From the NCBI GenBank assembly GCA_002503985.1, contig DASW01000007.1:108435-172434 (forward strand): a DNA stretch of 64,000 bases, read 5' to 3'. The notes beneath the pieces were generated by a model. The model searched no databases and had not been told where the DNA came from. It was given only the letters and a program-made list of their open reading frames with translations. Origin of the DNA: Thermoplasmata archaeon UBA61. GTDB taxonomy: Archaea; Thermoplasmatota; Thermoplasmata; Lutacidiplasmatales; UBA184. The stretch's first letter is position 1. Each line of letters starts with the position of its first letter. The translations under genes and the position numbers were made by a program. Below, piece after piece: positions 36,495 through 55,000 of this stretch.

Positions 36495-36580
36495 AGAAAG
36501 TTGCTTGACAACCCGTGTCAAATAGACGCCTATTGTAATCTATATACTCTACGGCAGATTAGTATAAATCCCCTGTAAAG
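36495..36580. promoter_or_regulatory. divergent truA / pst promoter region with TATA-like boxes and a perfect inverted repeat
   Basis: TTGACAacccgTGTCAA at 36501-36517. TATATACTC at 36531 and TATAAATC at 36553, the only AT-rich stretch in the area. Confidence 0.4.
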
Positions 36581-36689
36581 TTCGTTCCTCCGATGTCGAC
36601 CCGGACGGCTAGCCGCGTTGTGGACGGGCTTTCCCTCTAAGGTCGACGGAACCGACACAGTCCGTGAACAGAAGAACGGCAGGAGAAAA

Positions 36690-37922: not shown

Positions 37923-37957
37923 TCGAGAGGCCGGGCGGACCCACCGAGGTTCTCCGG

Positions 37958-39840: not shown

Positions 39841-39846
39841 AGTACC

Positions 39847-40602
39847 ATGAACCCAACCAAGCTCAAGGTCGACCACCTCACTGCCTACTACAGCGAGAAA
39901 GCCGCGATCACCGATGTCTCCATCGAGTTCCCCGAACGAGCCGTCAGCGCCATCATCGGACCGTCTGGCTGCGGAAAGTCGACGTTGATCCGCTGCCTCA
40001 ACCGTATGCACGAGACCGTCGTCCGGACCCGGGTGGAAGGGCAGGTCCTGCTCGACTCGGAGGATATCTACCAGCTTGACCCCGTGCGGGTGCGCCGACG
40101 GATCGGGATGGTCTTTCAGAAGCCAAATCCGTTCGTCACGATGTCCATCTACAACAACGTGAGCGCCGCGCTTCGATTCAACGGACGACCTTCGAGGGAG
40201 GAGACCGACCGGCAGGTGGTGCGCAGCCTCCAGCAGGCGGCCCTCTGGGACGAGGTCAAGGAACGGATCGACGCGCCCGCGGTCTCCCTCTCCGGCGGCC
40301 AGCAGCAGCGGCTCTGCATCGCGCGGGCACTTGCGGCGGAACCCGAGGTCCTTCTCATGGACGAGCCGTGCTCGGCCCTGGACCCAATCGCCACCGCGAA
40401 GATCGAGGAACTGATCAAGCAGTTGAAGACGGAGTACACGCTCGTGATCGTCACGCACAACATGCAGCAGGCGGCCCGCGTCGCCGATTACACCGCGTTC
40501 ATGTACCTCGGAAAGCTCATCGAGTTCGGACCGACCGAGGAGTTGTTCGAACGGCCGAAGGATTCTCTCACGGAAGCGTACATCACAGGAAGGTTCGGAT
40601 GA
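39847..40602 (+). CDS. pstB: phosphate ABC transporter ATP-binding protein
   Basis: Walker [10 protein letters not shown], signature LSGGQQQR, Walker B LLMDEP. Confidence 0.95.
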
Positions 40603-41360
40603 ACAAAGATCCCCTCGCCGACACAGGACGACCCCGCGGTTACGACCTCGAGATCCGTCAGCTGAAGGCTCGCGCGGTGGCGATGGGAGAATGGGCGTTC
40701 GCGATGGTCCGGGACGGATGGCGAGCGTTCTGCGGGGGGGACCTCGTGGCCGCGCAGGCCGTTCTCGACCGAGGTACCGAGCTCGACCGGCTCGATGAGG
40801 ACATCGAGCATGCAGCCATCGCCTTCCTCGTCCTTCGCCAGCCCACGGCCGGCGACCTGCGGACCGCCGCCGGTTTGCTGAAGATCACCACGCATCTTGA
40901 CCGGATCGGTCGGCTCGGGTTCGACATGGCCCGAATCACCACCGAGGGCGCTCCCAGTGAACCCGCGGACCTCCGAGAGGTTCTCGAACGGATGGACTCC
41001 GTGGTCGAATCGATGGTCAGCCAATGCCTCGAGGCCTTGGGACACGACCGAGCGGACCTCGCTCGCGACCTGTTCCGCAGGGACGATGAGGTCGACCAGC
41101 TCCATCGCGATGCCAACCGGATTATCCTACGGGAGCTGAACGCGAAAACCAGCAATACGACCCGGGTCGCGGACGACCTACTCGTGGCGCGTCATTTCGA
41201 GCGAATCGCCGACAATGCCTGCAAGGTTGGGGAGAAGACGGTCTATGCACTCAGGGGTCAACGACGGTCGGAGTACCTGCCCCGCCACCGCTACATACCC
41301 TACACCCTCGAGGGACCGACGTCGACACCGAGAACGACAGATGATTCGCCTCCCGTCTGA
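40599..41360 (+). CDS. phoU: phosphate uptake regulator
   Basis: ATGA overlap with pstB. Two PhoU repeats. Confidence 0.85.
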
Positions 41361-41489
41361 CGGCGACTTTGCCTTCGATTAACGAGGCCGTCTGTTTCGA
41401 ACTTCCCTGATTCGTGGTCTCGGGTACACCTTGACCATCGTTCACCCGGCGGTGAACGTACATATTCTCCTTGCAACAGACATCGGACT

Positions 41490-41864
41490 GTGCCCTACAA
41501 GGATCCTGCTAAGCGACGTGCGTACAACCTGGCCTATCGGCGAGAGTACTATCGGAGTCACAAGGTCGAATACCTCGCCAAGAACCGGGTTCGGAAGAGG
41601 GCGGCCCGACAATTCCTCTCAGGTGTGAAGCGACGCAATCCTTGCGCCCGATGCGGAGAATCCGACTTGCGATGCCTCGACTTTCATCATCGAGGTGGTC
41701 ATGAGAAACTCGCAGGGTTGTCTATCATGGCAACGGACGGGGCTGCGATTGCCTCCCTGGAAAGGGAACTGCGCAAATGTATCGTCCTTTGCAAGAACTG
41801 CCACGCGAAGGAACACTTCAAAGGGACCGGCGATTCAGGGAAACGGCCGGGGACGCTCCCGTAG
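41490..41864 (+). CDS. free-standing HNH endonuclease
   Basis: Motifs CARCG...DFHH...CKNCH. GTG start. The 3' end overlaps the tRNA 5' end by ~10 nt. Confidence 0.75.
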   Translation: MPYKDPAKRRAYNLAYRREYYRSHKVEYLAKNRVRKRAARQFLSGVKRRNPCARCGESDLRCLDFHHRGGHEKLAGLSIMATDGAAIASLERELRKCIVLCKNCHAKEHFKGTGDSGKRPGTLP

Positions 41865-41954
41865 TCTAGTCCGGTCAAGGATAGAGGGCCTTCGAGGCGC
41901 CCCATGGGGCGTCGAGGAAACCCTCCAACGCGGGTTCGAATCCCGCCGGGAGCA
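41855..41954 (+). tRNA. intron-containing tRNA, probably tRNA-Glu(UUC); ~25-nt intron at about 41895-41919
   Basis: 7-bp acceptor stem GCTCCCG/CGGGAGC. D-loop AGTCCGGTCAA. T-arm GCGGG-TTCGAAT-CCCGC. Discriminator A. Anticodon stem GAGGG/CCCTC is interrupted by a 25-nt insert that folds as a relaxed bulge-helix-bulge. The spliced loop would be CCTTCGA. Confidence 0.6.
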
Positions 41955-41997
41955 TCCCAAACATGGTTTAATACCGCCGTACTGACATGCCGAAACC

Positions 41998-43302
41998 GTG
42001 CCTCGGTCTCCGATGGGCGGTATCGAGATCCGCGAGTTCCTTTCCCTTCCGAGCCTCAGGGCTTGGTATGAGAACGTAGCTCGAGGGTCACGGATCACGG
42101 CCGACGTCTACTCTCGTTCCCTACGCCTATTCTGTCACCTGACAGAGAAGGACCCATCCTCGCTGCTTCGACTTGCGGAGCCACAGCTCCATTCAATCCT
42201 GCTCGAGTTCGTGACCGCCGAGGAGAAACGGAAGCAGGCGGGCAGCTCGACGGCGACCCACCTCAAGGCGGTGAAGTCGTGGCTCGCGTTCAACGGTATC
42301 CGCATCACCCGACCCGTCAAGGTCCGTCGCGTGCAGGAGACGCCGACACTCGCGGAAGAGCGTACCCCCACCCAAGACGAGCTGCGCCGAGTGTTGCTCG
42401 CAGCGACCGCTCGAAACCGAGTATCCTGCGCGATGATGGCCTTCTCGGGCGTTCGTCCAGAAGTCCTCGGGAGTTACCTCGGCGATGACGGTCTCCGCGT
42501 CAAGGACCTCCCGGAGTTGCGGATCCGCGGCTCCGAGGTGCGTTTTGAGCGAACCCCGGCGACGGTGGTGGTCCGCTCCACTCTCTCCAAAGCCGGACAC
42601 CGATACTTCACGTTCCTGGGGGAAGAGGGGTGCGGGTACGTCGCCGAGTACCTCCGCTCGAGAGTCAAGGAGGGAGAGACCCTCGGTCCCGAGTCCGACA
42701 TCGTTCACGCTGAGGCCGGCCACAGCACCCTGCGTGGAGGAAACACGTTCATCCGGACAACCAACGTCGGGGATGGAATCCGTCTCGCCCTACGGAAGGG
42801 GGGTTTCCCGTGGCGTCCGTACGTGCTTCGTGCCTACTTCGATACCCAGTTGCTGCTTGCCGAGTCGAAGGGCAAGGTCGCCCACGACTACCGAGTGTTC
42901 TGGATGGGGCACAAGGGATCGATGGAGGCCCGGTACACGACCAACAAAGGACGCCTCCCGCAGAATCTCGTCGACGACATGCGCGATGCATACTGTCGGT
43001 GCGAACCGTTCCTGTCGACAGTCCCCTCACGAAACGAGCAAGATGCCCAAGCAAAGATGGCGAAGACCATGTTGATGGGCCTTGGCTACACGGAGGCAGA
43101 GCTCGCCGCGATTGACTTCGAGAATCTGGACGTCACGTTATTCCAAGACCTCGTCACGAAGAAGATGGTCTCCTCAGGTGCGGGTGCAAAGCAGCAGCTC
43201 GTAGACGCGGGCGATCTTCCCCGCTACCTCGAACAGGGCTGGACTGTCGTCACCGCGGTCAATGGACACCAAGTCGTGCTGAATCCACCGGCGTCACGAT
43301 AA
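41998..43302 (+). CDS. tyrosine recombinase/integrase (phage integrase family)
   Basis: C-terminal catalytic region with R...HxxR (HDYR)...Y. 434 aa. Lies immediately 3' of the tRNA. Confidence 0.85.
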   Translation: MPRSPMGGIEIREFLSLPSLRAWYENVARGSRITADVYSRSLRLFCHLTEKDPSSLLRLAEPQLHSILLEFVTAEEKRKQAGSSTATHLKAVKSWLAFNGIRITRPVKVRRVQETPTLAEERTPTQDELRRVLLAATARNRVSCAMMAFSGVRPEVLGSYLGDDGLRVKDLPELRIRGSEVRFERTPATVVVRSTLSKAGHRYFTFLGEEGCGYVAEYLRSRVKEGETLGPESDIVHAEAGHSTLRGGNTFIRTTNVGDGIRLALRKGGFPWRPYVLRAYFDTQLLLAESKGKVAHDYRVFWMGHKGSMEARYTTNKGRLPQNLVDDMRDAYCRCEPFLSTVPSRNEQDAQAKMAKTMLMGLGYTEAELAAIDFENLDVTLFQDLVTKKMVSSGAGAKQQLVDAGDLPRYLEQGWTVVTAVNGHQVVLNPPASR

Positions 43303-43648
43303 GCCGGAACCATCCGACCACCTTCGCCGCATACTCCTGACGGGGGATCTCGTCGGGTTCGCCAAGGACCAGGATCCGCAGAGGGTGGGAAGGGTCGAGA
43401 CTCTGGGCCATCGCCTTCATCTCGCGCAGGGAGACCAAGAGGTCCGCACCCCCGAAGCGCACGAGGGATGACGACCGGGAGGCAGTAGTGAGGGCTCCCG
43501 CCCTGGAAATCGGTGTTCCGCGGGCCATCCCGGTCGCCACCGAAGTCGTCGAGCGAGTCCTGCCATAAGAATCGAGTTTCCCCGATGAAGCGTGGAAGCT
43601 GCTCGGCGTCGAATCTCCGTTCAGATTCCGCCGGGTGAAGTAGCCCAA
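43259..43648 (-). CDS. hypothetical protein (weak)
   Basis: ORF only. Overlaps the integrase 3' end. Confidence 0.2.
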   Translation of the reverse strand: MGYFTRRNLNGDSTPSSFHASSGKLDSYGRTRSTTSVATGMARGTPISRAGALTTASRSSSLVRFGGADLLVSLREMKAMAQSLDPSHPLRILVLGEPDEIPRQEYAAKVVGWFRLIVTPVDSARLGVH

Positions 43649-43675
43649 TAACCCCGAATCGGCGCTCGCCTATGC

Positions 43676-46600
43676 ATGGACAGCGGACCCGTCCATCGCG
43701 AACTGTTGCTGCCGACGCCGACCAAGGACCCGCCCGAAATCCCGCCGCTCGTCTGGGCCTCGTCGACCCCGTTCTGGCTGGAGATCCACCGAGAGACGAC
43801 CGGACGAGTGCGATACTCGCTCGGTTCCAGCTCCGTATCGGACCTCGAGGCGATGCTCGCCTGCCTCGAGAGCACGCGCCCCCGCTTGACGGGAGGCGCG
43901 CCGATCGAATGCTTCGCCGCGACGCTCGTTCCGGAAGGGGTCTATGCTCGGGCCGTACCCGTCCAGAAGCACCACCACCTGCCCATCCAGGTCCAACCCA
44001 AGGTGGACAGCGCGAGCTTCCTTCTGCGGACCCTCGGTTCGCGGACGCTGCGCGACCACGACGTACTCCTGCAGCTCCTATTTCGAAGGGTCCGAGGCTG
44101 GGAATCGAGTTTCTTCTCGCCCCTCTACGATACGGTCGCCCAGCGCCAGGCCCACCAGCTGAGGGGCCAGATGGAGGTTCGCCAGGGCGAAGCCGCCTAT
44201 CACGTCGAGCTGAGGACGAACATCAAGGGACCACAGCCGGAGGAGGCGCTGACCGCGCTCGGTGCCTGGCTGGGGCAGTGGACGACCACTGGGGGAGTGC
44301 CCTGGAGGCGGTGGAAGGTCATCCGCCCCAGGGCGGAGTGGGGATTCCACGCGGCTCTGGCCAGCCACGACCTCCGCCGATACTCGAGCAGGAAGGCCCG
44401 TCGGAACGTTTCCGGCACGGAGCTCGCGCATCTGCTCAGCATACCTTGGGCCACTCACCACCCGGAATGCTCCTACGCCGGGGCGCCTCGTAGCCAGCCG
44501 GCGCCAGAACTCGTCGTGCGTCCGTCCTCTTCCCCCAGCTCCCCCGCCGACGCGCGGCTCATGGTTGGGGTCAGCGGCTCTCGCCGGGTCACACTTCCGC
44601 GGGAATGGAACCACGTTGCCATACTTGGCAGGACCCAGTCGGGTAAGTCGACTCTCGCCCTCAATCTCGTCCTCCAGACGCTGAGAAAACACCCCAACTC
44701 CACCGTCGTCGTGATCGAGCCCACCGGGACGCTGGTCGAGGGGATCGTGTCGCGACTTCCCCGCGAAATCGCCTTGGAGACCGTAGAGATCGACCCCGCC
44801 CACGCCACCTTCCAGCAGGGTGACGCGACCATGGTCTCGGTCCCCCTCTCGTTGCTCCTGCCGCCGGAGCGGGCGGACGAATTGCCTTCGGTCCGCGATC
44901 GCTGGTCGGAGGCGCTCGCGGGCGACCTCCTCGCCGCGATCCGGAGCGCCTGGGGGGAGGAGAGCATCGGGGGCCGGGCCGAATTCGTCCTGCGCGCACT
45001 GGTGCAGGGCCTCGCACTCACGCCCGGCTCGAACCTGGTCGACGCCTACCACATCCTCACTTCGAAAACCGCGCTCCAGCGGTTTGTCAAGTCCGCGCCG
45101 CCCGGGCCGCTGAGAGACTTCCTCGAACACCACCTCCCTCGCCTCGACTACACGTTCACGATGTCGTCCCTCGACAAGGTCGGTAAGGTTGCAACCAATT
45201 CCCTCCTCCGGATCGCGCTCTGCCAGCGGAACCACGCGGTCTCGTTCGACCGGCTGCTCGGGCATCGCCTGCTCCTCCTGAACCTCTCCAAGGCCGCCCT
45301 GGGAGCGGACGGGGCGAACTTCCTGGGGGCGATCTACCTAACCCAGCTCTGGGCCGCCGTTCAGCGGAGCGGACGGCCGGATCGGCCGGTCTACCTGGTC
45401 CTCGACGAGGTCCACAACTACGCCGTCCCGGCGCTCGCCGACATGCTGAGCGAGGGGGCGAAGTTCGGGCTCCACGTCGTGGCCATCACCCAGTACCTCC
45501 ACCGGGTGCCGCTGAGGGTCCGGGCGGCCCTCCTGGGGAACGTCGACGCTTGGTTGCTCTTCTCCCTCGGGACGGAGGACATGGACGACGCGTGGAAGAT
45601 CGTCAACGGGGAGACCCACGGGTGGCTACCTCAGGACCTCGTGGACGGGCTCCGGCCTTACGAAGTCGCGATGGCGGTGTCAGGAGACCTTCTGAAGCTG
45701 GGAACGCGCCCCAGCCCTCCTCCAGACGCGCAGGCGAACGACCTGAGGGACGTCGTGACGACGAGCTCTCGAAGGTATGCCCAGCCCGAGGACTCGGAGG
45801 CGTCGCCCTGGCTTGTGGGTCAGGAAATGGTTGAAGTCATACTCAGGGGGCTATCGATTCAGCCCAAGACACGCGAGGAGCTAGCCGCCGAGACTGCGCT
45901 GGCAGCAAATCGACTGGACGGAGCGCTCAGCGTCTCCATCACCTCTGGAGATATTGAACAAGAGCCGACTCACGGGAAGTTCCGCCTGACTTCCCGCGGA
46001 GACTTCCACCTCCGGGCGCTCGAGTCGCGGAGGAACGAGGGGTCGGACCACTCTGACCTGCTAGCGGACGGCGTAGCCCCTCTTCAGGGTCTCCGGCCAC
46101 GGGTCACGGCGCAGGGTGGAGTGCTCCCTCAGCCGGACGGCGTATTCGAATGGAACGGGCAGACCTACAATCTGGAGGTGGAGACGAGCAACTTGGTCAA
46201 GCACCCGGAACAGGTAGTCCGCAATCTTCGGAAGGCTCTGGCGATGGAACGACCGTGCCTCTTTGTAGTTCCGGACCGGGAAAGCGCCGGACAGCTCTTC
46301 CAAATCCTGGCCCGAGCCGCCCCCGAGGTTGCGCTTTGGAGGGAGTTCGGGCTGATGTGGAAGGAAGGGCCGGGAAAGTTCCTTCCCTACATCTCGGGCT
46401 CCGGGCAGCCATGGAGCTTCTTGATCGATGGAAGGGGGTCCGCGGGGGGTGTGGTTCCACCGAGCACAATCTTTCCCCAGGCCATCAGTTCGGCGGATTC
46501 GGACCTTTCCCGAGTGCACCTTCGTGTCAAACAACTCTTGGCCGAAGGCAAGTCAGAGGCGACCTTGCAAGACTTCGCCGATCTCTTCGGTCCTGGCCAG

Positions 46601-46819
46601 GGCGGTGTCCTCGAACGGCAGCGCCTTGGGATGGCCCTCATCGCCCTTGGTGTGAAGAGCCGAAGGGTCCGCACGGCGGACGGCCAGGAGCGCGTCTACG
46701 ACATCGGTCAACTGGCAGATTCGGTTGGCAGCTCACAAGACGGGGCTACGAGGCCCGCGGACCACAGTCGCAACGAAGGCGACAACGGGAACGATTCCGG
46801 GGTCGGACCGAACAACTGA
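43676..46819 (+). CDS. large HerA/FtsK-superfamily (DUF87-type) ATPase, candidate conjugative coupling/DNA-translocating ATPase
   Basis: Walker A GRTQSGKST and Walker B YLVLDEVHNY. 1047 aa with long N- and C-terminal extensions. Confidence 0.75.
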   Translation: MDSGPVHRELLLPTPTKDPPEIPPLVWASSTPFWLEIHRETTGRVRYSLGSSSVSDLEAMLACLESTRPRLTGGAPIECFAATLVPEGVYARAVPVQKHHHLPIQVQPKVDSASFLLRTLGSRTLRDHDVLLQLLFRRVRGWESSFFSPLYDTVAQRQAHQLRGQMEVRQGEAAYHVELRTNIKGPQPEEALTALGAWLGQWTTTGGVPWRRWKVIRPRAEWGFHAALASHDLRRYSSRKARRNVSGTELAHLLSIPWATHHPECSYAGAPRSQPAPELVVRPSSSPSSPADARLMVGVSGSRRVTLPREWNHVAILGRTQSGKSTLALNLVLQTLRKHPNSTVVVIEPTGTLVEGIVSRLPREIALETVEIDPAHATFQQGDATMVSVPLSLLLPPERADELPSVRDRWSEALAGDLLAAIRSAWGEESIGGRAEFVLRALVQGLALTPGSNLVDAYHILTSKTALQRFVKSAPPGPLRDFLEHHLPRLDYTFTMSSLDKVGKVATNSLLRIALCQRNHAVSFDRLLGHRLLLLNLSKAALGADGANFLGAIYLTQLWAAVQRSGRPDRPVYLVLDEVHNYAVPALADMLSEGAKFGLHVVAITQYLHRVPLRVRAALLGNVDAWLLFSLGTEDMDDAWKIVNGETHGWLPQDLVDGLRPYEVAMAVSGDLLKLGTRPSPPPDAQANDLRDVVTTSSRRYAQPEDSEASPWLVGQEMVEVILRGLSIQPKTREELAAETALAANRLDGALSVSITSGDIEQEPTHGKFRLTSRGDFHLRALESRRNEGSDHSDLLADGVAPLQGLRPRVTAQGGVLPQPDGVFEWNGQTYNLEVETSNLVKHPEQVVRNLRKALAMERPCLFVVPDRESAGQLFQILARAAPEVALWREFGLMWKEGPGKFLPYISGSGQPWSFLIDGRGSAGGVVPPSTIFPQAISSADSDLSRVHLRVKQLLAEGKSEATLQDFADLFGPGQGGVLERQRLGMALIALGVKSRRVRTADGQERVYDIGQLADSVGSSQDGATRPADHSRNEGDNGNDSGVGPNN

Positions 46820-47072
46820 GCGCCCGGTACGCGCCGACCTTGTGCCGACGGTGCCGACGTGCCAGTGTATGAGGAAAGAGGGTACGTTCTATCGGCACAG
46901 CAGGGTCGACACAATCATCGGCACTGAATTCGGTCAGTGGTCTCGAATGGCTCAGGACTCGCCGACGGTTGTCGTCATGCGAGCGAATCGCCCGTGATCA
47001 CCTGCCTCCGCCACGCGGGAGGGGCCCACGAACGAAGTGAGTGGGAGGGACCCGCGCCAAGCCGCCGGCTCG

Positions 47073-47336
47073 TTAGGGGAAAAACGCTCGCATATCCTTT
47101 CGCGAGACCTCAAGGATCCTCGCACCTGTCACGGCCAGAACAATCCCGACCGCCAGGATCGCGAAGAACGCTCCCACGTTGAACCCGGACGCATCGGGAA
47201 GGCATCCCGGGTCCGCGACGCACGCGTTGAAAACCGCGAGGGCTTCCACGCCCGCCGCGATGAAGATCAGACCGACCGCGAGAGTGACCTCTCCCGCGCC
47301 ACGGAACGCGAAGGCGGCTCGAACGTTCCCCGCCAT
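47073..47336 (-). CDS. small membrane protein (2 TM)
   Basis: Hydrophobic segments. Lies directly downstream of the DUF932-like gene. Confidence 0.35.
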   Translation of the reverse strand: MAGNVRAAFAFRGAGEVTLAVGLIFIAAGVEALAVFNACVADPGCLPDASGFNVGAFFAILAVGIVLAVTGARILEVSRKDMRAFFP

Positions 47337-47342
47337 TGTCCC

Positions 47343-48218
47343 TCACGCGGGGGCGGTTGCCGCATCCGAAATGAGCAACGCGCTCGCTGCGGCCCGTTCG
47401 AACCCCCGGGACCGCTCCGGGCTCACGCGCGGGCCAACCTCATGCGTAAGGATCTCGGTCGCAACCTGGTAGGCCGACCAGCGGGTGAGGAGCGCGTTGT
47501 GCGAGGCAGCTGCCTCCGCCCGCGCACCAATCGTGGTTGCGTAGACGCGGGGGAGCCCCGCCGCGATGAGCAAGGGTGTCACGTCCTCCGCGAGGACCTC
47601 ATCGCCCATCGCGTCCGCGTAGACCTGCAGCGCGTCCCGGAAGCGGCCCAGGATCGTGTGAATGGCCTTCTGGAGCATCGCCATCAGGTCCGTCTCCGAG
47701 GAGAGGTGGACCTCACGAAGCTCCACTAGGGAGTGCATTCCCGCATAGAGCTGGTTCGCGCAGGCGATCCGCACCCCCGTTCCCTCGGCCCGGACCGCCC
47801 AACTCCCGTCCAGGCTGTTCATCACTCGGACGCCGGGATAGACGGACTCCCCCGGCGCGAGCTCGTACCGGGTCCCGACCACGAGTCGGACCTCCATCCG
47901 ACGTCCTCCCGCGAAGAGGCGGATCTGCTCGCGGGGGAACACGGGGGCGTTCGCGTCCAGGACGGGGCGTTCCAGGGCCTCCCCGATGGCATGGACAGCT
48001 TCCGCGACCTCGCGGTGCTGCACGAGCTGGTAGCGGTCGCTCACGATCGACACGACCTGGGAGGTGTCCTTACGGCGGACGCCCCGGTAGGCCTCGAGGG
48101 GCTCCCCCTGGGGTCCATGTACGGGGACCAGGTCATAGAGGGGAACCTGGTCGGGAGTGACCACGGTCTCGTACGGTCGGCGCAGGTTCTGGCTTTCGGT
48201 CGGGTTCGAGGCTATCAT
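47343..48218 (-). CDS. DUF932-like phage/plasmid-associated protein
   Basis: Motif VMNSLDGSWA resembles the DUF932 signature NSxDGSxA. Confidence 0.55.
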   Translation of the reverse strand: MIASNPTESQNLRRPYETVVTPDQVPLYDLVPVHGPQGEPLEAYRGVRRKDTSQVVSIVSDRYQLVQHREVAEAVHAIGEALERPVLDANAPVFPREQIRLFAGGRRMEVRLVVGTRYELAPGESVYPGVRVMNSLDGSWAVRAEGTGVRIACANQLYAGMHSLVELREVHLSSETDLMAMLQKAIHTILGRFRDALQVYADAMGDEVLAEDVTPLLIAAGLPRVYATTIGARAEAAASHNALLTRWSAYQVATEILTHEVGPRVSPERSRGFERAAASALLISDAATAPA

Positions 48219-48420
48219 CGTTGTCCTCGGTCACGAGGGACAACGAGGGAGCCTCGCCAGAGGACTAGGTCCCTCGAGACGCGAGGGCACGGCTCGCGAG
48301 GTCAGCAATCTGCGGCACCCGCCTCAGGGTTCAGGGCGTGCTCCGCGTCCTCTATAGAAACAACGGGAACTCCGGACCGGAGCTGTCCTTCCGTGACCCC
48401 AAAGCACGCATAGAACTACG

Positions 48421-48510
48421 CCGCCTTGCGCCCGTCGCGCGCGAGCGTCTCGACCCGGCCCGGGGAGTCGCGACCGCCGCCCGCGCCACCTTCACGCGGG
48501 CGCGGTTAGG
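48421..48510. repeat. ~80-nt GC-rich intergenic repeat, copy 1
   Basis: gcgcccgtcgcgcgcgagcgtctcg...ggcccggggg...gcgacc.ccgcccgc...ccttcacg. Shared with 51421-51500 and partly with 49786-49860. Confidence 0.5.
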
Positions 48511-49375
48511 GACACGGTGAGTACGAGAATACCAAACCCGCGCCTGTGCTCGACGTCTGGGCGAGATCGTCGTATTGCCAGACGCCCCCGTTGGCAGGAA
48601 ACGTGTAGTTGTACCAGGCGTACGTCCCGTTGGCATAGTTCGCGCTGTTCGCTCCGCTGGGGTCGAGCGGAACCGAAATTGAATGGCCCTGCCACTCGAA
48701 AGGAGACGTCACGGGCCACCCTTGACTGAAATCTCGAACCACTTGGCCTTGGGTAGAGCCACAGGTATCGACCGTGCCTGTGGCCGCATGGAAATTCAGG
48801 TCGAACTGCGCCCCCACACCGCACGATAAGTAGGATGTGTTCTGGACCTGTTCGCAGAGTTGGCTGCCGTTCAATCCATTCAAGAGTCCAGTGTCCGAGA
48901 CAAGGTGAGAATACATCGGCCAAGACGTGGTCCCGCCATGACGCAACCCCTGCGCCGGACTTGCGGAGAAGTAAGCGACCATCGAGCTCAAGCAAGGAGT
49001 CTGAGCGCCGGGTCCTGACACGGACGCATTCGTCAGCGAGTAAACGGTCCAATTCTCGAATCCGACAATAAACGCCGTGACATTGCCGTCAGTCACAGGG
49101 GTATAGTTCAGCGAGACACTCAGGTTTCCCCCAGGTATCTTGCCCCAGATCACCACCTTGCCCGACACCAATCCGTGGTAAGGCGCGGCCGCAATAGCGC
49201 TCGGTACCCAGACTGTAACGTTGCCGAGACGTTGGTCGACCTGGCACTCCGTGTGCGAAAAGAATCCCCACCCTGGATGTCCTGTTATCGCTACGGCGAG
49301 AACAAGAATCACTCCGACTACAACCCCGAGCACCGCGGAAGGTACCGAGGCGCGCATCGTGGGGAAACGTAGCAC
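48506..49375 (-). CDS. secreted N-glycosylation-sequon-rich protein
   Basis: N-terminal signal/TM VLGVVVGVILVLAVAI. At least 10 N-x-S/T sequons. Cys pairs. Confidence 0.6.
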   Translation of the reverse strand: MLRFPTMRASVPSAVLGVVVGVILVLAVAITGHPGWGFFSHTECQVDQRLGNVTVWVPSAIAAAPYHGLVSGKVVIWGKIPGGNLSVSLNYTPVTDGNVTAFIVGFENWTVYSLTNASVSGPGAQTPCLSSMVAYFSASPAQGLRHGGTTSWPMYSHLVSDTGLLNGLNGSQLCEQVQNTSYLSCGVGAQFDLNFHAATGTVDTCGSTQGQVVRDFSQGWPVTSPFEWQGHSISVPLDPSGANSANYANGTYAWYNYTFPANGGVWQYDDLAQTSSTGAGLVFSYSPCP

Positions 49376-49408
49376 AGGAGCCTGTATAATCGTGCCATCC
49401 AGGAAGGC

Positions 49409-49627
49409 TCACGCGGTCTGGCTCTCTCCTGACTCGTGGTCTGAGTCTTCCGGACCAGAAGCAGGAACACCCTGGCGGAACTGGGTCTCGGTGATGCCAA
49501 AGCTCGCGTAGAATCGCGCCGCCTTCACCCAGTCCCGCCGGAGGACCTCCTCCGCTCCGGGCGTGCCCGAAATCGCCGCCCGGGCCGCCTTGACGCGCCC
49601 GCGCAGGTCGCGCAGCCTCCCCTTCAC
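49409..49627 (-). CDS. conserved small protein, paralog of the C-terminal domain of 58383..59288 (start unresolved)
   Basis: Motif RLRDLRGRVKAARA...ARFYA.FGITE.Q is shared with 58383..59288. Homology continues upstream to ~49790, but an in-frame stop at 49792-49794 and the absence of an in-frame ATG leave the real start unclear. Confidence 0.4.
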   Translation of the reverse strand: MKGRLRDLRGRVKAARAAISGTPGAEEVLRRDWVKAARFYASFGITETQFRQGVPASGPEDSDHESGESQTA

Positions 49628-49785
49628 GGCACGTTCGTCGGCTTCGCGAGAGTCGTCGGGGAGGCCGCTCGTGGTCTCCGAGACGCTGAACTGCCGGGCC
49701 GAAGTCGCAATCTCCTCCGCGTCCTCGTCTTCGTCCGGGCCGCCGAACGCGACCCGCGACTCGAACCGCGTTCGCGTCCGGGTCG

Positions 49786-49860
49786 CGCCGCATCACGCCC
49801 GTCGCTCGCGAGCGTCTCGGCCCGCGCGGGGGGGACCCGCGAGCGAAGCGAGGGGGGAGG
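49786..49860. repeat. ~80-nt intergenic repeat, partial copy
   Basis: cgcccgtcgctcgcgagcgtctcggcccgcgcggggggg matches the 5' half of the repeat consensus. Confidence 0.4.
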
Positions 49861-49889
49861 ACCCGCGCCGTCCGCGTGCCAGCGCGAAT

Positions 49890-51374
49890 CTAATGAGCCT
49901 GGCCGGACGCGCCGTCGGGCGGGGGCGTGGTTGGCGAAGGCTTCGCCCGACGCTTGCTCCGCGTCAGGACGACCACCACCACGGCTGCGGCCACGAGCAG
50001 CGCAACGAGTCCCCCGACGATGTAGTACCCCGTCACCCCGGGGAATCCGAAGAGCCCCCGGGATGATCCGCCACCGCACGCGGAGGTTGAAAAGGTCACG
50101 TTCAGCTTGGTCGGGCCGCCCGCAACGGTCACGTTCCCTGAGGAAGGGCACGCGGTGTGGTTCGTTTGGTTGCTGACGGTGAAAGGAAACGTCCCGTTCG
50201 TCTCCGGGAACGTGATCGAAGTGTTGGTGGACGAGAGAGTCGTTCCTCCCACGGTCGCCGACCAGTTCGTCCCGGTAGGGAGGCCGGACTCGTGCACGGT
50301 CAGCCGGAAAATCTGAGGTAGGATGGTGATGTTGTTCGTGTCCAAATCGGCGACATAGACGTTGTGATTGGCCGGGTCATACGCGCTTCCGAAAGGTTCT
50401 TGTTGGACGGCTTGGGTCAAGACAATTCGGTTGGTATCAGGGTCGATGACTGTCACGTTGGACGCGGGCTGACCTCCGATATGGTACCTGTCGGTTACAT
50501 AGACGTAGCCATTGTACGGATCGTAGAGGGCGGACCCACATCCAGTGGCGATTGGGATTGTGGCAACTACCTCGTTGGTGGTTCCGTTCACTACACTGAC
50601 GACATTCGAAATGCCGGGCTGGTTCCCGTTCGTGCAAGCGTAAACGTCACCGTTCGAACCGGCGTACGCCACACCAGGGCCACCGCCTGATGGGTAAGCC
50701 TGCCCAACGACCCGATTGATTGTAGTGTTGATTACCGTCATGTTAGAGGGTATGGCATTTCCCTCGTTGGAAACGAACACCTTTCCGTTCGCCGGGTCGT
50801 AAGCGGCCCCATTCGGACCGGCTCCCACCGGAACGACTGCCACGACCGCGTTCCCATGGATCACGGTCACGTTGTCGCTGGTGAGGTCGGTCACGTAGAT
50901 GTCGCCGTTCGCGGGGTCAAAGACCTGTACGTGGGGGGCGCAACCGGTTGGGCACCCGTAAGCAAGGAGAGGGATGGTCCATTGGACCTGATTGGTCGAT
51001 GAGTTGATGGCGTAGACTCTGTAGACAGTCTCAGCGACGTAGACCATTCCGGTCGAGGAGTCTACCGCAAGCGTCCCGATTCCGAATGGCATCGGAATCC
51101 ACGCCACGACATGGTTCGTGGAGGTGTTGACCACGCTGATATTGCTCGAGCCGAAATTGGTTACGTAGAGAAGCCCGTTGACCGGATTGTACGCGACGCC
51201 GATTGGGCCGGCTCCGACCGGGAATGTGACATTCGCCGGCACTGCAGAAGCGAGTGCCGACTGGGAATGAGTTGGGCCACTACGGAACTGGCTGACATTC
51301 GCGACGGAGGGTACCAGGACCGCAACGACAACAACGATCGCGAGCACGGTGAGGAGGCGGCGTGGCGGCTCCAC
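49890..51374 (-). CDS. YVTN-family beta-propeller repeat surface protein with C-terminal TM anchor
   Basis: Repeated Y-V-T/A-N/D motifs (LLYVTNFGS, MVYVAE, DIYVTD, KVFVSN, YVYVTD, NVYVAD). C-terminal TM followed by RSKRRAK. Confidence 0.75.
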   Translation of the reverse strand: MEPPRRLLTVLAIVVVVAVLVPSVANVSQFRSGPTHSQSALASAVPANVTFPVGAGPIGVAYNPVNGLLYVTNFGSSNISVVNTSTNHVVAWIPMPFGIGTLAVDSSTGMVYVAETVYRVYAINSSTNQVQWTIPLLAYGCPTGCAPHVQVFDPANGDIYVTDLTSDNVTVIHGNAVVAVVPVGAGPNGAAYDPANGKVFVSNEGNAIPSNMTVINTTINRVVGQAYPSGGGPGVAYAGSNGDVYACTNGNQPGISNVVSVVNGTTNEVVATIPIATGCGSALYDPYNGYVYVTDRYHIGGQPASNVTVIDPDTNRIVLTQAVQQEPFGSAYDPANHNVYVADLDTNNITILPQIFRLTVHESGLPTGTNWSATVGGTTLSSTNTSITFPETNGTFPFTVSNQTNHTACPSSGNVTVAGGPTKLNVTFSTSACGGGSSRGLFGFPGVTGYYIVGGLVALLVAAAVVVVVLTRSKRRAKPSPTTPPPDGASGQAH

Positions 51375-51420
51375 GATTCTCTGAGGGCGTCACGCCGTAT
51401 ACACTTGGCCGTGAATCGTG

Positions 51421-51500
51421 GCGTGCGGCCGCCGTGCGCCCGTCGCGCGCGAGCGTCTCGGCTGGGCCCGGGGGGGTTTCGCGACCACCGCCCGCACTGC
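51421..51500. repeat. ~80-nt GC-rich intergenic repeat, copy 2
   Basis: Near-identical to 48421-48510 over ~75 nt. Confidence 0.5.
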
Positions 51501-51502
51501 CT

Positions 51503-52072
51503 TCACGAGGGTGGCTTGCCTCGAATCCGGAGTATAGTCCGTGGCCCACGACCGGATTGAGAGATGGTATGGACCTCCAATCCCGCGCCACGGGCGGATC
51601 CAAGAACCGCGTGAAATGCCTCCTGCGTGAGAGGGTTGTCCAGCGGATAGAGGGTTCGGATTTCGTGTTGCGCGAAGGGGTATGGCTGGCCGTTGGGCAA
51701 GGTGGGAGGCGAGAGCCACAGCGTGAGCTTTGCCTCGGGGTCGTTCCAGCGATAATCCTTGCTCCGACCTTTGGCATAAGCGAGACGAATCCCCGTAGCA
51801 GAAACCTCTAGCCGCACGGCGCCTGGCGAGAACATGAATATGGCTAGGGTGCACAGAAATCCGACCCCTACCAGGATGAGCGACGCCATTCCGATCGAGT
51901 AGAGGTTCGAGAAGAAGCCCGGTGTCGTCGCGATTACGCCAACTGCGATCGCGAGTAGAAGCACGAACCCTGCCGTGAAGATAATTTGGACGGTTCGAGA
52001 CCCCCCACGGTAGTCGTGTAGGGAAGCGACTGAAAGGTCGAAGACTGCGGAGGCGGCTGCTGATTCAGTCAT
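51503..52072 (-). CDS. membrane protein (3-4 TM) coupled to the giant surface protein gene
   Basis: Start overlaps the stop of 52069..58386 (ATGA). Confidence 0.5.
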   Translation of the reverse strand: MTESAAASAVFDLSVASLHDYRGGSRTVQIIFTAGFVLLLAIAVGVIATTPGFFSNLYSIGMASLILVGVGFLCTLAIFMFSPGAVRLEVSATGIRLAYAKGRSKDYRWNDPEAKLTLWLSPPTLPNGQPYPFAQHEIRTLYPLDNPLTQEAFHAVLGSARGAGLEVHTISQSGRGPRTILRIRGKPPS

Positions 52073-55000
52073 GATCCCTCGTGGAACTCGCCAAGCCCGA
52101 TTCCCAAGGATGTAAAGTCGAGGCCTGCGGTTAAGGCGTTAAGGACGAGAAGCGGGCCCGATCTGTCCGCGGGGTAAATCGCGAAGTCGATGAGATCCAG
52201 CGTTACACTCGTCCCGCTTACCCCCAGGGATGTCTCTTGCACTAGGCGATTTCCGGAGGCGCCCGCAATCCCGAGAGCGATACTTACTAGGGCGAGACCG
52301 AAAGCGACGGACGGCAGAATGAGTCCATCGCCCTGAAAGTATGCAGCTGCCAACAATCCGAGACCAATTTGAGTACTCAGCAGTGTCGCGGTCCAATCCG
52401 CCACACCCGCAAGTGCGTTCCAGTTTGTCGTCCAATTGCCGTCATTCTTTGCCGGAGGGCTTGTCGAGTTGGCCACACCCTCAGTAGCGTGAATGGCCAC
52501 GGCATTGATGAAAGTAACTTTCGAAAGCCCCGAGGTGTTGGGGGACGTAGACGATTCAATTGCTTGCAGAACCGCAGAGACGATGAGGCCGACGACGATT
52601 CCGACCAGGAGTCCCGCACCGAGGCTCAGCCCCATCAGTATCCCGATGACAACTTCAGCTACAACCGCTATCGCGATTCCGGTCAGGAACAGGGGACCGA
52701 GCAGCGCGTTCCAAAACGATGCGGCGTGAGCCTCGGAAACTGCCTTCCCAGCCACGGTGTCGCTCACCGCGCCCGAGAGACCCACCGATACGGACGAGCC
52801 GTAAGCCGAAATCGCGGCTTGGAGTGGAGCGAAGGCCGTTGCCAGGATGGCCTTCACGAACGAGATGATGTAGTTGAGGAGAGCTTGGAGGACCGTCCAC
52901 ATTGCAGTCCCGATGGCTCGCAACGCGGTCACGGTCTGGCTCACGAGAGCAGTGATTCCGAGCTTACTCGCGAGCGCGGCAGCTGCGTCGGCGAGGTAAG
53001 CTGCGGCGGCTGCGATCCCATTCCAGCCCACTGAGAAGAGCTTGGCAACGACGGTGACGACACCAGAGACGGCATTCCAAACGTAAGAGGCGGCCACGTC
53101 CCACCAAGGCTTGGAGGGAGGGGGAGGCTGCGAGGTCGATACAGGGGTGCCATAGGCACCGTCGTTTCGGTAGGTGGCGTTGGCGAGGGTAGTAACGACG
53201 TTGGAAGAGAGGCCGAGGGCGGGCAATCCTGCAGTCTCGTTGATGAGGTTCCCTGTAAGGTTGCCCGACTGGTTGAGAAGGAGACCGCCAAGGAGGTCGT
53301 TGAGTTCTGCGGCACTGGTCGTGAGGTTCGAGTTGTAGCCGGCGCTGGAGACATTGATCCAGAAGACGGCCTGGACCTGTCGGGACTGGTATCCGTTCTC
53401 GAGAGAGGGATTGGAGGCAACGCCCCCGAAGGCGCTCGGGTCGATGCCGGAGTAGATCTGGGTCGTGTTAGAGAAGACGTGGATGAACCCGGCCGAGGAC
53501 GGTCGATTTGTCGAGGTGTTGAGGACACGAGGCAACCAGTTGTAGGGGTTGAAAGTGAGGCTGGAGTCCTGATGCTGGGAGGGGACCTTCGCCGATGCGG
53601 TCGCATTGATCAGGGTCTGACCCAGAGGGCTGGCGAGGAACATGGCCCGGGGAATGAGCAGATTGTTAAGTCCCGGAAGAAGTGTGACAGTATACTTCCA
53701 GTTCGACTGAGGTCCGAAGACGCCACTGATCGCAATCTTGCTTGCGTTGGTTCCCGGGGGCGCCGTATCGTTGAGCACGAGCAGGTCGAAGTCCTGCTCG
53801 GCGGTGTAGCGGGAAAGCCCGGTGGGCAAGGGGGAGAGGGTCGAGTTGTTCGGCGGGGCGAGAATCCAGGTCGGGGCCTTCGAGTAGACGGGCAGGACTT
53901 GGTAGGTGAAGGAGATGCTAGGGGTTGCCCCGGCGCTGGGATACGAGACACTCTGTAGCTGGCCGTTCGCCAGGTCCACCTTGTAGTGCGGCGTGCTGGC
54001 GATGGCATAGACGGTGTTAGGCGAATTGCTCGTGGACTCGTTTTGGACAAGCGAGAGGTTGAGGTAGGCGAACTGTTCGGTGTTGGTGACAGGGAAGGTG
54101 ACGACAAACGACTTCGGAGAGGTGGAGCTTGGGAAGTTGGCTGTGCCACCGGAGCCGGCGGAGACCTGCACCGAGTATCCGCCGTAGTCCGTTCTAGCGG
54201 CTGAGTAATACGTAGCGGAAGAGTTCGCCGCGACGAACGCCGACACGCCATTTCCTGCGGCGTTGGCTGTATCCTTCCAGCCGGTAAGTGTCACCTGGAG
54301 GTCGGTTCCGCCTAGGGGGTTCACCTGTGCGCCGTCCGGAGCGCCATCGTTGGAAGTCGAAACCGCGAGGGGGTTCGCCCCCCAAGAGAGCTTTCCCCAC
54401 ACTGTCAGGGTCGGAGTCCCGTTCCATTGGCCCTCAACGGCTCGTAGAAAGTCAACCCCGCTGATTTCACTCTCCAGCTGGGTCCAGACGCCCCACAACA
54501 TCTGGAACGCCTGTCCCGACCAGAGCACTTCGGCCGCCCACGGAGATCCGTCACCGCTGTAGATCCCGTTCTTCGGATTCGGTGTGAGATTGGCGATGTT
54601 GGTCGCCAGGGGATACCCCTTCTCGTGGAGTCCTGGAGCGTACAAAACGTTCGAGCTGAACGGCCGGTATGTCGTGCTCTCATTCCATAGATTGTAAACA
54701 TCCCACCCAGAATTCAGCAACGACCAGCTCACCGCGAAGGTCAGGTTCCAGGTATCAAGCATCTGGCTTTCGGCGGTGTCCAACGTGTTCGGATCGAGTC
54801 CAAGCTCCTTTTCCACGAAGTCACTGACAAGCCCGTTCGTCGAGAACTTGGCTGGGTTTGCGGTAACGACGGCTTCGGAAGGAGCTATGCAGCTGGATGG
54901 CGGGCAGGTGTTCACCGGTCGGCCACCTGGCACCTGAGTATACGGCAACGGGATCGTCCAACCGGCCTCCTTCTCGACGTCGGTGAGCCCGTCGCCTGAG

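What the first reader, a model, noticed from the sequence alone, without database searches (positions are those of the whole stretch)
41855..41954. tRNA with a 25-nt intron in a relaxed BHB context and an atypical spliced anticodon loop (CCUUCGA, C33/G37)
- Acceptor stem, D-arm and T-arm are canonical (GCUCCCG..., D-loop AGUCCGGUCAA, T-loop UUCGAAU).
- The anticodon stem GAGGG/CCCUC is separated by 32 nt instead of 7.
- The insert folds as: a 4-bp helix CCUU:GAGG, flanked by 3-nt bulges CGA and AAA, then a 7-bp GC helix. This is BHB-like, with cuts predicted after G41894 and before A41920.
- Splicing gives anticodon UUC (Glu), but with C at position 33 and G at 37. Both are unusual, so either the identity or the splice register differs from canonical.
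Basis: seen in the sequence. Interest (0 to 1): 0.55.

Follow-up and report, generated by a model that had tools for sequence, protein, structure and literature searches.

The report
Intron-bearing tRNA-Glu with C33
This is a real archaeal glutamate tRNA gene with an ordinary, textbook-shaped intron, but its anticodon loop carries a C where almost every elongator tRNA has a U, and that oddity is shared by at least 116 related soil and peat archaeal genomes.

Summary
Window 41855-41954 (+) is a genuine tRNA gene (Rfam RF00005, 49.5 bits, E = 1.4e-7).

**Intron.** It carries a 25-nt intron (41895-41919) at the canonical 37/38 site. The intron context is a strict hBHBh' motif, not a relaxed one: 5-bp anticodon stem, 4-bp helix CCUU:GAGG, 3-nt bulges CGA and AAA, and a 7-bp inner helix. 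Thirty-five intron-bearing homologues keep this geometry, with compensatory changes in all six scored inner-helix pairs.

**Splice product.** Splicing gives the anticodon loop CCUUCGA, i.e. tRNA-Glu(UUC) with C33. Eighty-five intronless homologues encode exactly this loop. At least 43 of them lie at the same pstB-phoU locus, so both the splice register and the Glu identity hold.

**C33.**
- It is not an error, a pseudogene feature or an integration scar.
- It is fixed in at least 116 species-level MAGs, nearly all Thermoplasmata, including the Lutacidiplasmatales/UBA184/TMEG order, plus three Micrarchaeia.
- All five anticodon-stem pairs covary around it.
- Related Thermoplasmata lineages (RBG_16_68_12/RBG_16_67_27-like) have the same tRNA body with U33.

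**G37.** G37 has a precedent in archaeal tRNA-Glu.

**Verdict.** The intron is ordinary. A lineage-wide C33 in an elongator tRNA is rare, and I found no report of it for tRNA-Glu.

**Not shown.**
- Whether this is the only GAA decoder.
- Whether C33 persists in the mature RNA.

The parts
41855..41954 (+). tRNA-Glu(UUC) gene, including the intron and discriminator A41954. No CCA is encoded.
   Evidence: Rfam RF00005 at 49.5 bits over exactly these coordinates. Sequence read.
41855..41894 (+). 5' exon, tRNA positions 1-37. It holds C32 (41889), C33 (41890), anticodon U34-U35-C36 (41891-41893) and G37 (41894).
   Evidence: BHB geometry, read. Intronless homologues have the same loop.
41895..41919 (+). 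25-nt intron at the canonical 37/38 position.
   Evidence: Cut sites follow the second base of each 3-nt bulge. Homologues carry introns of 22-28 nt in the same place.
41920..41954 (+). 3' exon, starting at A38 (41920).
   Evidence: BHB geometry. The spliced product folds as a cloverleaf, and ARAGORN calls it Glu(ttc).
41884..41925 (+). hBHBh' motif, made of:
- outer helix 41884-88 / 41921-25
- central 4-bp helix 41889-92 / 41914-17
- 5' bulge 41893-95
- 3' bulge 41918-20
- inner helix 41896-41902 / 41907-41913
- loop 41903-06
   Evidence: Across 28 distinct homologous arms, 98.6% of cells are paired and 6/6 scored inner-helix pairs show changes on both sides. None of 500 shuffles reached four of the five measures. 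Energy is -22.7 kcal/mol.
40599..41360 (+). phoU, the last gene of the pstSCAB-phoU operon. It is the conserved upstream neighbour of the tRNA.
   Evidence: Pfam PhoU at E = 5.6e-31. The pstB-phoU-tRNA order is kept in 61 homologous loci.
41490..41864 (+). ORF with a Cys/His motif (CxxC...CxxCH, HNH-like by eye). It overlaps the first 10 nt of the tRNA.
   Evidence: No Pfam hit. Homologues of 58-70% identity sit in the same position in L087, L121 and L065.
41957..64000 (.). Strain-specific mobile island that starts 2 nt after the tRNA and runs past the end of the window. It contains:
- a tyrosine-recombinase-like gene, 41998-43302
- a VirD4/TraG-like ATPase, 43676-46819
- a DUF932 gene, 47343-48230
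- two IS110 transposases, 60183-61289 and 61471-62577
   Evidence: Contig L005 of the same species matches the window at 99.98% up to 41956. Its downstream flank is absent from the window.

Best explanation
This is a functional elongator tRNA-Glu(UUC) gene of a Thermoplasmata archaeon of the Lutacidiplasmatales/UBA184 (TMEG) kind.

The proposed mechanism has these steps.
1. The primary transcript folds its anticodon arm into a strict hBHBh' motif.
2. The archaeal splicing endonuclease cuts after G41894 and after A41919, i.e. after the second base of each 3-nt bulge.
3. The ligase joins the exons, leaving a 75-nt tRNA with anticodon loop C32-C33-U34-U35-C36-G37-A38.

C33 is encoded in the genome and fixed across the lineage. 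It is therefore tolerated, or compensated, in decoding GAA (and possibly GAG).

Shown here: the gene, the motif, its conservation and covariation, the identity of the spliced loop with intronless orthologues, and the phylogenetic spread of C33.

Inferred: actual cleavage and ligation, charging by GluRS, that C33 persists in the mature RNA, and that this is the only UUC tRNA-Glu in the genome.
For: Gene and structure:
- Rfam tRNA match at 49.5 bits.
- The strict BHB is read directly from the sequence and scored.
- All 35 intron-bearing homologues keep CCUU:RRGG, the bulges CGA and ANA, and a variable inner helix.
- BHB pair counts: 98.6% paired, 6/6 scored inner-helix pairs with compensatory changes.

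Spread of C33:
- The genome scan hit its limit at 120 C33 tRNA-Glu(UUC) genes from 116 assemblies. Nearly all are Thermoplasmata, including Ca. Lutacidiplasma silvani and UBA184.
- Across 41 distinct mature sequences the cloverleaf is 100% paired. Nine pairs show compensatory changes, including all five anticodon-stem pairs.

Orthology and identity:
- Intron-bearing and intronless genes share the pstB-phoU-tRNA locus.
- The tRNA is identical in five assemblies of the species, including one that lacks the adjacent island.
- ARAGORN calls the spliced sequence and all intronless homologues Glu(ttc).

Need for a GAA decoder:
- GAA makes up 20-22% of Glu codons. Relative to CAA and AAA, it is no more depleted than in the U33 comparison lineage.
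- AcS3-62 (o__UBA184, 97% complete) has 46 tRNAs for 20 amino acids, the same count that the table lists for five cultured archaea such as A. fulgidus and Picrophilus. Its tRNA-Glu(UUC) is the C33 form (L019).
Against: - No RNA data: splicing, charging and the base at position 33 in the mature tRNA were not observed.
- No whole genome could be scanned, so a second U33 tRNA-Glu(UUC) elsewhere is not excluded.
- The invariance of CCUUCGA among the hits is partly built into the search pattern.
- U33 is regarded as essential for the anticodon U-turn in elongator tRNAs (PMC5041475).
- ARAGORN -i proposes Arg(tcg).
- No TATA-like promoter is evident by eye in the 60 nt upstream. An ORF overlaps the 5' end.
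Confidence: 0.85

Rival explanations
1. The C33 gene is an extra, specialised or poorly used copy. A canonical U33 tRNA-Glu(UUC) elsewhere in the same genome does the routine GAA decoding.
For: - U33 tRNA-Glu(UUC) genes with the same acceptor and D-arm are abundant in metagenomes.
- They sit in a different context, L44e-S27e-eIF2alpha-Nop10-PAC2-DUF835-tRNA. That is what a paralogous locus would look like.
- Four assemblies carry two C33 genes.
Against: - The U33 loci trace to other lineages. Their neighbours are named Euryarchaeota RBG_16_67_27 / RBG_16_68_12 or Thermoplasmata.
- The three NCBI assemblies found for them (DATMDM01, CAYNEM01, JAIYTA01) are not among the 116 C33 assemblies.
- None of the 120 U33 loci has the phoU context, and no C33 locus has the eIF2alpha context.
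- AcS3-62 has only 46 tRNAs in all.
- The C33 gene shows strong structural covariation.
Confidence: 0.12
2. C33 is only genomic. A C-to-U deaminase restores U33 in the mature tRNA, by analogy with C8-to-U8 editing by CDAT8 in Methanopyrus kandleri (from my own knowledge).
For: Only indirect evidence. U33 is near-universal in elongator tRNAs, so restoring it would remove the functional problem. Nothing in the data speaks directly for editing.
Against: - From my own knowledge, no editing at position 33 is known in any system.
- Sulfolobales tRNA-Cys(GCA) and many eukaryotic initiator tRNAs have a genomic C33, so C33 occurs naturally elsewhere.
- No deaminase candidate was looked for or found.
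Confidence: 0.07
3. The locus is a type-II-like tRNA-Arg(UCG) with U33, a 2-nt intron and a long variable arm, as ARAGORN -i draws it.
For: ARAGORN -i gives this call for the window and for all 35 intron-bearing homologues. In that drawing position 33 is a U.
Against: - The proposed anticodon stem pairs the constant GGGC with inner-helix bases. In homologues those bases change together with their BHB partner, not with GGGC.
- From my own knowledge, Arg tRNAs have no long variable arm.
- Orthologues at the same locus have no insert and can only be Glu(UUC).
- Rfam places the insert in the anticodon loop.
Confidence: 0.01
4. The locus is a tRNA pseudogene, or a hybrid att-site remnant left by the integrative element next to it.
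For: A recombinase-like gene starts 44 nt downstream, and a mobile island of more than 22 kb follows.
Against: - The tRNA is identical in the strain that lacks the island (L005).
- No partial tRNA repeat is present in the window.
- All stems are intact, and they covary across 41 distinct sequences.
Confidence: 0.02

Closest known systems
Archaeal pre-tRNAs with a canonical hBHBh' intron at position 37/38, cut by the EndA splicing endonuclease
   Same: - Two 3-nt bulges separated by a 4-bp helix.
- The outer helix is the anticodon stem.
- The inner helix lies within the intron.
- The cut follows the second bulge base on each strand.
- The intron is short (25 nt).
   Different: Nothing structural. 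The only peculiarity is that the exon side of the central helix includes C33, which pairs with G41916.
Ordinary archaeal tRNA-Glu(UUC), such as the U33 homologues from RBG_16_68_12-like Thermoplasmata found here (loop CUUUCGA)
   Same: - The acceptor stem, D-arm and T-arm are identical or nearly so.
- Anticodon UUC, with G37 and A38.
- Total length 75 nt.
   Different: - Position 33 is C rather than U.
- The anticodon-stem sequences differ.
- The genomic context differs: pstB-phoU here, against eIF2alpha-PAC2-DUF835 for the U33 forms.
Sulfolobales tRNA-Cys(GCA) with C33 (PMC7668247)
   Same: An archaeal elongator tRNA with a clade-wide, genomically encoded C33.
   Different: A different amino acid, anticodon and phylum. 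That case is known only from gene sequences as well; the authors could not isolate the tRNA.
Eukaryotic initiator tRNA-Met with C33, and Candida tRNA-Ser(CAG) with G33 (PMC5041475)
   Same: Natural exceptions to U33.
   Different: One is an initiator, which binds the P site. The other is a reassignment tRNA. Both are eukaryotic.

Membership tests
tRNA (Rfam RF00005) | Covariance-model score above the curated gathering threshold over the full model | tested here: met
   49.5 bits against a gathering score of 29, model positions 1-71, E = 1.4e-7.
tRNA (Rfam RF00005) | Four cloverleaf helices maintained in relatives by compensatory change | tested here: met
   Across 41 distinct sequences, 100% of cells are paired and 9 pairs show changes on both sides. 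None of 500 shuffles reached any measure.
Archaeal BHB intron (strict hBHBh') | Two 3-nt bulges on opposite strands, separated by exactly 4 bp and flanked by helices | tested here: met
   Bulges CGA (41893-95) and AAA (41918-20). Central helix CCUU:GAGG. Outer helix 5 bp, inner helix 7 bp.
Archaeal BHB intron (strict hBHBh') | Motif conserved in homologues while the intron sequence drifts | tested here: met
   35 of 35 homologues keep the geometry, with introns of 22-28 nt. All 6 scored inner-helix pairs covary.
Archaeal BHB intron (strict hBHBh') | Canonical location between tRNA positions 37 and 38 | tested here: met
   The cut sites leave a 7-nt loop. That loop is identical to the loop of intronless homologues, many at the same locus.
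Archaeal BHB intron (strict hBHBh') | Cleavage by EndA and ligation of the exons in vivo | not testable with these tools
   No RNA or enzyme data are available.
tRNA-Glu(UUC) isoacceptor | Anticodon UUC at positions 34-36 of the mature loop | tested here: met
   The spliced loop is CCUUCGA. ARAGORN calls the spliced sequence and 86 intronless homologues Glu(ttc).
tRNA-Glu(UUC) isoacceptor | Body shared with undisputed tRNA-Glu(UUC) genes | tested here: met
   The acceptor stem and D-arm are identical to U33 tRNA-Glu(UUC) genes of other Thermoplasmata, by design of the search pattern. The T-arm is also identical in the dominant variant.
tRNA-Glu(UUC) isoacceptor | Charged with glutamate by GluRS | not testable with these tools
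   No biochemical data are available.
Canonical elongator tRNA anticodon loop | U at position 33 (the U-turn uridine) | tested here: not met
   C41890 is at position 33. The same C is present in 120 homologues.
tRNA pseudogene / att-site remnant | Truncation, broken stems, or presence only next to the integrated element | tested here: not met
   The gene is intact and covarying. It is identical in the island-free strain L005.

The most novel reading that the evidence does not exclude
In the Lutacidiplasmatales/UBA184 lineage, and independently in some Micrarchaeia, the only GAA-decoding tRNA has lost the universal U-turn uridine.

In the eukaryotic Elongator complex, U33 is the trigger for Elp3-type wobble-uridine modification (PMC11096365). 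C33 may therefore keep tRNA-Glu(UUC) out of that modification pathway. That would imply a rewired way of reading GAA and GAG in a whole archaeal order.
Probability: 0.25. Interest if true: 0.75.

Novelty: new variant of a known kind. Interest (0 to 1): 0.55.

Why it matters
U33 is one of the most conserved bases in biology. It makes the anticodon U-turn, and in Elongator it switches on wobble-uridine modification.

Natural elongator tRNAs without it are very few. Here an order-level archaeal lineage has fixed C33 in tRNA-Glu(UUC), over at least 116 species-level genomes, while still using GAA codons normally. That offers a natural experiment on three questions:
- how dispensable U33 is;
- what compensates for its loss;
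- whether U34 modification of this tRNA has been dropped.

There is also a practical point. ARAGORN with intron search misnames every intron-bearing copy as tRNA-Arg, so annotations of these genomes may be wrong.

The intron itself is ordinary.

Tried and rejected
1. **ARAGORN.** The default run finds nothing. With -i it gives Arg(tcg) with a 2-nt intron. I rejected this on covariation and on the intronless homologues.

2. **First C33 pattern.** A pattern without the T-loop, run on viral contigs, gave three chance hits that are not tRNAs. The stricter pattern found none.

3. **attR or a partial tRNA copy in the window.** No repeat of 12 nt or more was found. The downstream flank of the empty-site contig is not in the window. 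The island's far end could not be reached, because the products of two window-end ORFs are not on record.

4. **U33 and C33 genes in one genome.**
   - No fetched locus has two Glu-type tRNAs.
   - Look-ups from the U33 context led to assemblies outside the C33 set, or to loci with tRNA-Val instead.
   - The question stays open, because both collection scans were capped at 120 rows.

5. **Evasion of an anticodon nuclease.** For K. lactis gamma-toxin, U33C has no effect on cleavage (PMC2275089). This gives the idea no support.

6. **Spread of the intron-bearing allele by integrative elements.** Pfam scans of the genes downstream of 28 intron-bearing and 69 intronless loci show no integrase family among the 25 most frequently matched families. 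BLAST finds homologues of the window's recombinase at only three other loci.

7. **Position 33 in other tRNAs of the lineage.** The fetched loci hold no other credible tRNA.

8. **Elp3 in the Lutacidiplasmatales supplementary tables.** It is not listed there.

Full report
**Observation.**

The sequence at 41855-41954 reads:

GCUCCCG UA GUCU AGUCCGGUCAA GGAU A GAGGG [32 nt] CCCUC CAAC GCGGG UUCGAAU CCCGC CGGGAGC A.

- Rfam's tRNA covariance model matches exactly these coordinates at 49.5 bits (gathering score 29, E = 1.4e-7). It puts the surplus bases in the anticodon loop. This is the only Rfam match above the gathering threshold in the 64-kb window.
- The 100-nt sequence folds with z = -4.5 relative to shuffles.
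- ARAGORN in default mode reports nothing, because it ignores introns.

**Anatomy of the insert.**

The 32 nt between the anticodon-stem strands form, together with that stem, a strict hBHBh' motif:

| Element | Coordinates | Sequence |
|---|---|---|
| Outer helix | 41884-88 / 41921-25 | GAGGG / CCCUC |
| Central 4-bp helix | 41889-92 / 41914-17 | CCUU : GAGG |
| 5' bulge | 41893-95 | CGA |
| 3' bulge | 41918-20 | AAA |
| Inner 7-bp helix | 41896-41902 / 41907-13 | |
| Loop | 41903-06 | CAUG |

- This structure costs only 2 kcal/mol more than the unconstrained optimum of the arm: -22.7 against -24.7 kcal/mol.
- Archaeal endonucleases cut after the second base of each bulge. This rule is established knowledge. 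It is consistent with the anticodon-intron pair, position 32 with intron position -3, known from eukaryotic pre-tRNAs.
- Under that rule the intron is 41895-41919 (25 nt), at the canonical 37/38 site.
The word 'relaxed' is not.

**Relatives.**

A scan of one genome per GTDB species used a tRNA-Glu D-loop, a loop of the form CCYTCGA, and a T-loop.

- All 120 are CCTTCGA. None is CCCTCGA.
- All fold as tRNA-Glu-like genes.
- Nearly all records are titled Thermoplasmata. They include Ca. Lutacidiplasma silvani, Ca. Lutacidiplasmatales, UBA184, and many of the AcS/SubAcS MAGs on which the order Lutacidiplasmatales (GTDB o__UBA184, formerly TMEG) was founded (PMC9287336).
- Three are Micrarchaeia, on loci of 40-49% G+C.
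- The window itself comes from a peat-associated MAG lineage: NCBI GCA_050018495.1, and JGI samples 3300040758 and 3300014153. Its tRNA is identical in five assemblies.

**Intron-bearing homologues.**

- Thirty-five of the 120 genes carry an intron of 22-28 nt.
- All 35 keep CCUU:RRGG, the bulges CGA and ANA, and an inner helix whose sequence drifts.
- I built a 40-column alignment of 28 distinct arms. The variable inner loop was replaced by a placeholder.
- On that alignment, 98.6% of cells pair and all six scored inner-helix pairs show changes on both sides. None of 500 shuffles reached the observed values for four of the five measures (1 of 500 for the fifth), and slid registers fall to 36-56% paired.

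**Intronless homologues.**

- The other 85 genes have no intron and encode the loop CCUUCGA directly.
- Across 41 distinct mature sequences the cloverleaf is 100% paired. Nine pairs show compensatory changes, including all five anticodon-stem pairs.
- The loop's own invariance is imposed by the search pattern and is not evidence.

**Orthology.**

- Both kinds of gene lie immediately downstream of pstB-phoU: 18 of 36 intron-bearing loci and 43 of 86 intronless loci. PhoU identity to the window runs from 85% down to about 38%.
- ARAGORN calls the spliced window sequence and every intronless homologue tRNA-Glu(ttc).
- So the splice register and the Glu identity are both canonical. C33 is a genuine, selected feature of the gene.

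**The ARAGORN -i call.**

With intron search on, ARAGORN calls the window and all 35 intron-bearing homologues tRNA-Arg(tcg), with a tiny intron and a long extra arm. I reject that call for three reasons.
- It pairs constant exon bases with inner-helix bases that demonstrably covary with a different partner.
- It cannot apply to the insert-free orthologues.
- It conflicts with Rfam's placement of the insert.

**How unusual are C33 and G37?**

- Grosjean and Westhof describe U33 as the conserved residue on which elongator anticodon architecture depends. They list as exceptions many eukaryotic initiator tRNAs (C33) and Candida tRNA-Ser(CAG) (G33) (PMC5041475).
- An archaeal precedent exists. [quoted passage not shown]
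- Three full-text searches for C33 found nothing on C33 in tRNA-Glu or in Thermoplasmata. The Lutacidiplasmatales paper (located) has only four methodological or descriptive mentions of tRNA.
- G37 has a precedent in archaeal tRNA-Glu. H. volcanii tRNA-Glu carries m1G37, and modified G37 occurs in the G1 codon quadrant in Archaea (PMC7668247).

**Where is U33?**

A metagenome scan used the same acceptor stem and D-arm with the loop CTTTCGA.

- The dominant variant accounts for 82 loci of 54-69% G+C. Its anticodon arm reads GGGGC-CUUUCGA-GCCUC.
- It always lies after L44e-S27e-eIF2alpha-Nop10-PAC2-DUF835 and a membrane protein.
- Its neighbours are named Thermoplasmata or Euryarchaeota RBG_16_67_27 / RBG_16_68_12.
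- The NCBI assemblies reached from these neighbours (DATMDM01, CAYNEM01, JAIYTA01) are not among the C33 assemblies.
- No U33 locus has the phoU context, and no C33 locus has the eIF2alpha context.

The simplest reading is that U33 is the state in related Thermoplasmata lineages and C33 is derived in the UBA184-like lineage. I could not scan a whole genome, so a U33 paralogue within C33 genomes is not formally excluded.

Two indirect points argue against such a paralogue.
- The 97%-complete AcS3-62 MAG has 46 tRNAs for 20 amino acids. The same table lists 46 for five cultured archaea, including A. fulgidus, Picrophilus oshimae and Aciduliprofundum boonei. Its UUC gene is the C33 one (L019).
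- GAA accounts for 20-22% of Glu codons in the window and in C33 loci. Relative to CAA and AAA it is no more depleted than in the U33 lineage. A working GAA decoder is therefore needed.

**Mechanistic implication (inference).**

[quoted passage not shown] In yeast, a U33C SUP4 tRNA loses mcm5U34-dependent suppression (PMC11096365). According to that paper's reference list (Selvadurai et al. 2014; not read here), archaeal Elp3 catalyses the same C5 wobble-uridine chemistry.

If the rule carries over, C33 would exclude tRNA-Glu(UUC) from that wobble modification. tRNA-Glu(UUC) is a classic Elongator substrate in eukaryotes. This is a testable idea, not a finding. I could not check whether these genomes encode Elp3.

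An anticodon-nuclease escape idea gets no support, because U33C does not affect gamma-toxin cleavage (PMC2275089). C-to-U editing at position 33 cannot be excluded, but as far as I know it has no precedent.

**Surroundings.**

- Upstream lies pstA-pstB-phoU. After it comes a 124-codon Cys/His-motif ORF that overlaps the tRNA's first 10 nt. That ORF is conserved at the same place in three relatives.
- Two nucleotides after the discriminator base, the window diverges from contig L005 of the same species.
- What follows is a mobile island of more than 22 kb: a tyrosine-recombinase-like gene, a VirD4/TraG-like ATPase, a DUF932 gene and two tandem IS110 transposases.
- The tRNA is identical with and without the island, so C33 and the intron are not products of integration.

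**An unexplained pattern.**

- Every intron-bearing gene has the stem GAGGG/CCCUC, and no intronless gene does.
- Yet the two allele classes occupy the same locus and are interleaved on a PstB+PhoU neighbour-joining tree. The window's nearest relatives (PhoU 80-85% identical) are intronless.
- This suggests allele replacement or gene conversion rather than simple intron loss.
- I found no enrichment of integrases next to either class.

**Verdict.**

- The intron is a standard strict BHB intron.
- The tRNA is Glu(UUC).
- G37 has precedent.
- C33 is real, conserved across an archaeal order, rare among elongator tRNAs, and not reported for tRNA-Glu in the papers I searched.

This is a new variant of a known kind. 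It is of moderate-to-good interest to tRNA and translation specialists.

Noticed in passing
window 41957-64000: A strain-specific mobile island begins 2 nt after the tRNA and runs past the window end. It holds a tyrosine-recombinase-like gene (41998-43302), a VirD4/TraG-like ATPase (43676-46819), a DUF932 gene (47343-48230) and two tandem IS110-family transposases (60183-61289, 61471-62577). Contig L005 of the same species lacks it. No attR or partial tRNA copy lies within the window.
   Followed up: partly
window 41490-41864 (+): A 124-codon ORF with a CxxC...CxxCH motif (HNH-like by eye, no Pfam hit) overlaps the first 10 nt of the tRNA gene. Homologues of 58-70% identity sit between phoU and the tRNA in L087, L121 and L065. 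Gene callers instead call a 45-aa gene here.
   Followed up: partly
L009-L128, compared with window 41884-41925: The intron is perfectly linked to the anticodon stem GAGGG/CCCUC: 35 of 35 intron-bearing genes have it and 0 of 85 intronless genes do. Yet both allele classes sit at the same pstB-phoU locus and interleave on a PstB+PhoU tree. The window's closest relatives (L027, L056) are intronless. This suggests allele replacement or gene conversion. It remains unexplained.
   Followed up: partly
L020, L086, L120: Three Micrarchaeia/Micrarchaeaceae MAGs (loci of 40-49% G+C) also encode tRNA-Glu(UUC) with C33. Their stems are CAGCC/GGCUG or CAGGC/GCCUG. Either C33 arose independently or the gene was transferred. 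From my own knowledge, cultured Micrarchaeota live as episymbionts of Thermoplasmata.
   Followed up: no
L129-L248, L249-L252, L257-L261: In other Thermoplasmata (RBG_16_68_12-like and a second group of about 69% G+C), the U33 tRNA-Glu(UUC) lies in a conserved cluster L44e-S27e-eIF2alpha-Nop10-PAC2-DUF835-(membrane protein)-tRNA. In two further Thermoplasmata MAGs of 58% G+C (L253, L255), the tRNA after PAC2 is Val(GAC).
   Followed up: partly
window 41855-41954 and 35 homologous loci: ARAGORN with intron search systematically names every intron-bearing copy tRNA-Arg(tcg). Annotations of these MAGs made with that setting would therefore lack tRNA-Glu(UUC) and gain a spurious Arg tRNA.
   Followed up: yes
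U33 variant (e.g. L251 5438-5512) compared with C33 variant (e.g. L013): The anticodon arms read GGAUC-GGGGCCUUUCGAGCCUC (U33) and GGAUUCGGGGCC-UUCGACCCCG (C33). The shared string CGGGGCC, followed by one fewer U, looks as if the C33 loop arose by loss of one U from the UUU run plus a one-base shift of the stem register. This is speculative.
   Followed up: no
L028 and L073; L033 and L121; L017 and L114; L021 and L089: Four assemblies carry two C33 tRNA-Glu(UUC) genes. In YP2.bin30, one copy has an intron and the other is intronless with a 5-nt variable loop. These could be true duplicates, the two ends of an integrated element, or binning artefacts.
   Followed up: no
window 36001-44000 and 50001-58000: G+C drops to 60-63%, against 65-70% elsewhere in the window. 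The second dip lies inside the mobile island. The first spans the pst operon and the tRNA.
   Followed up: no
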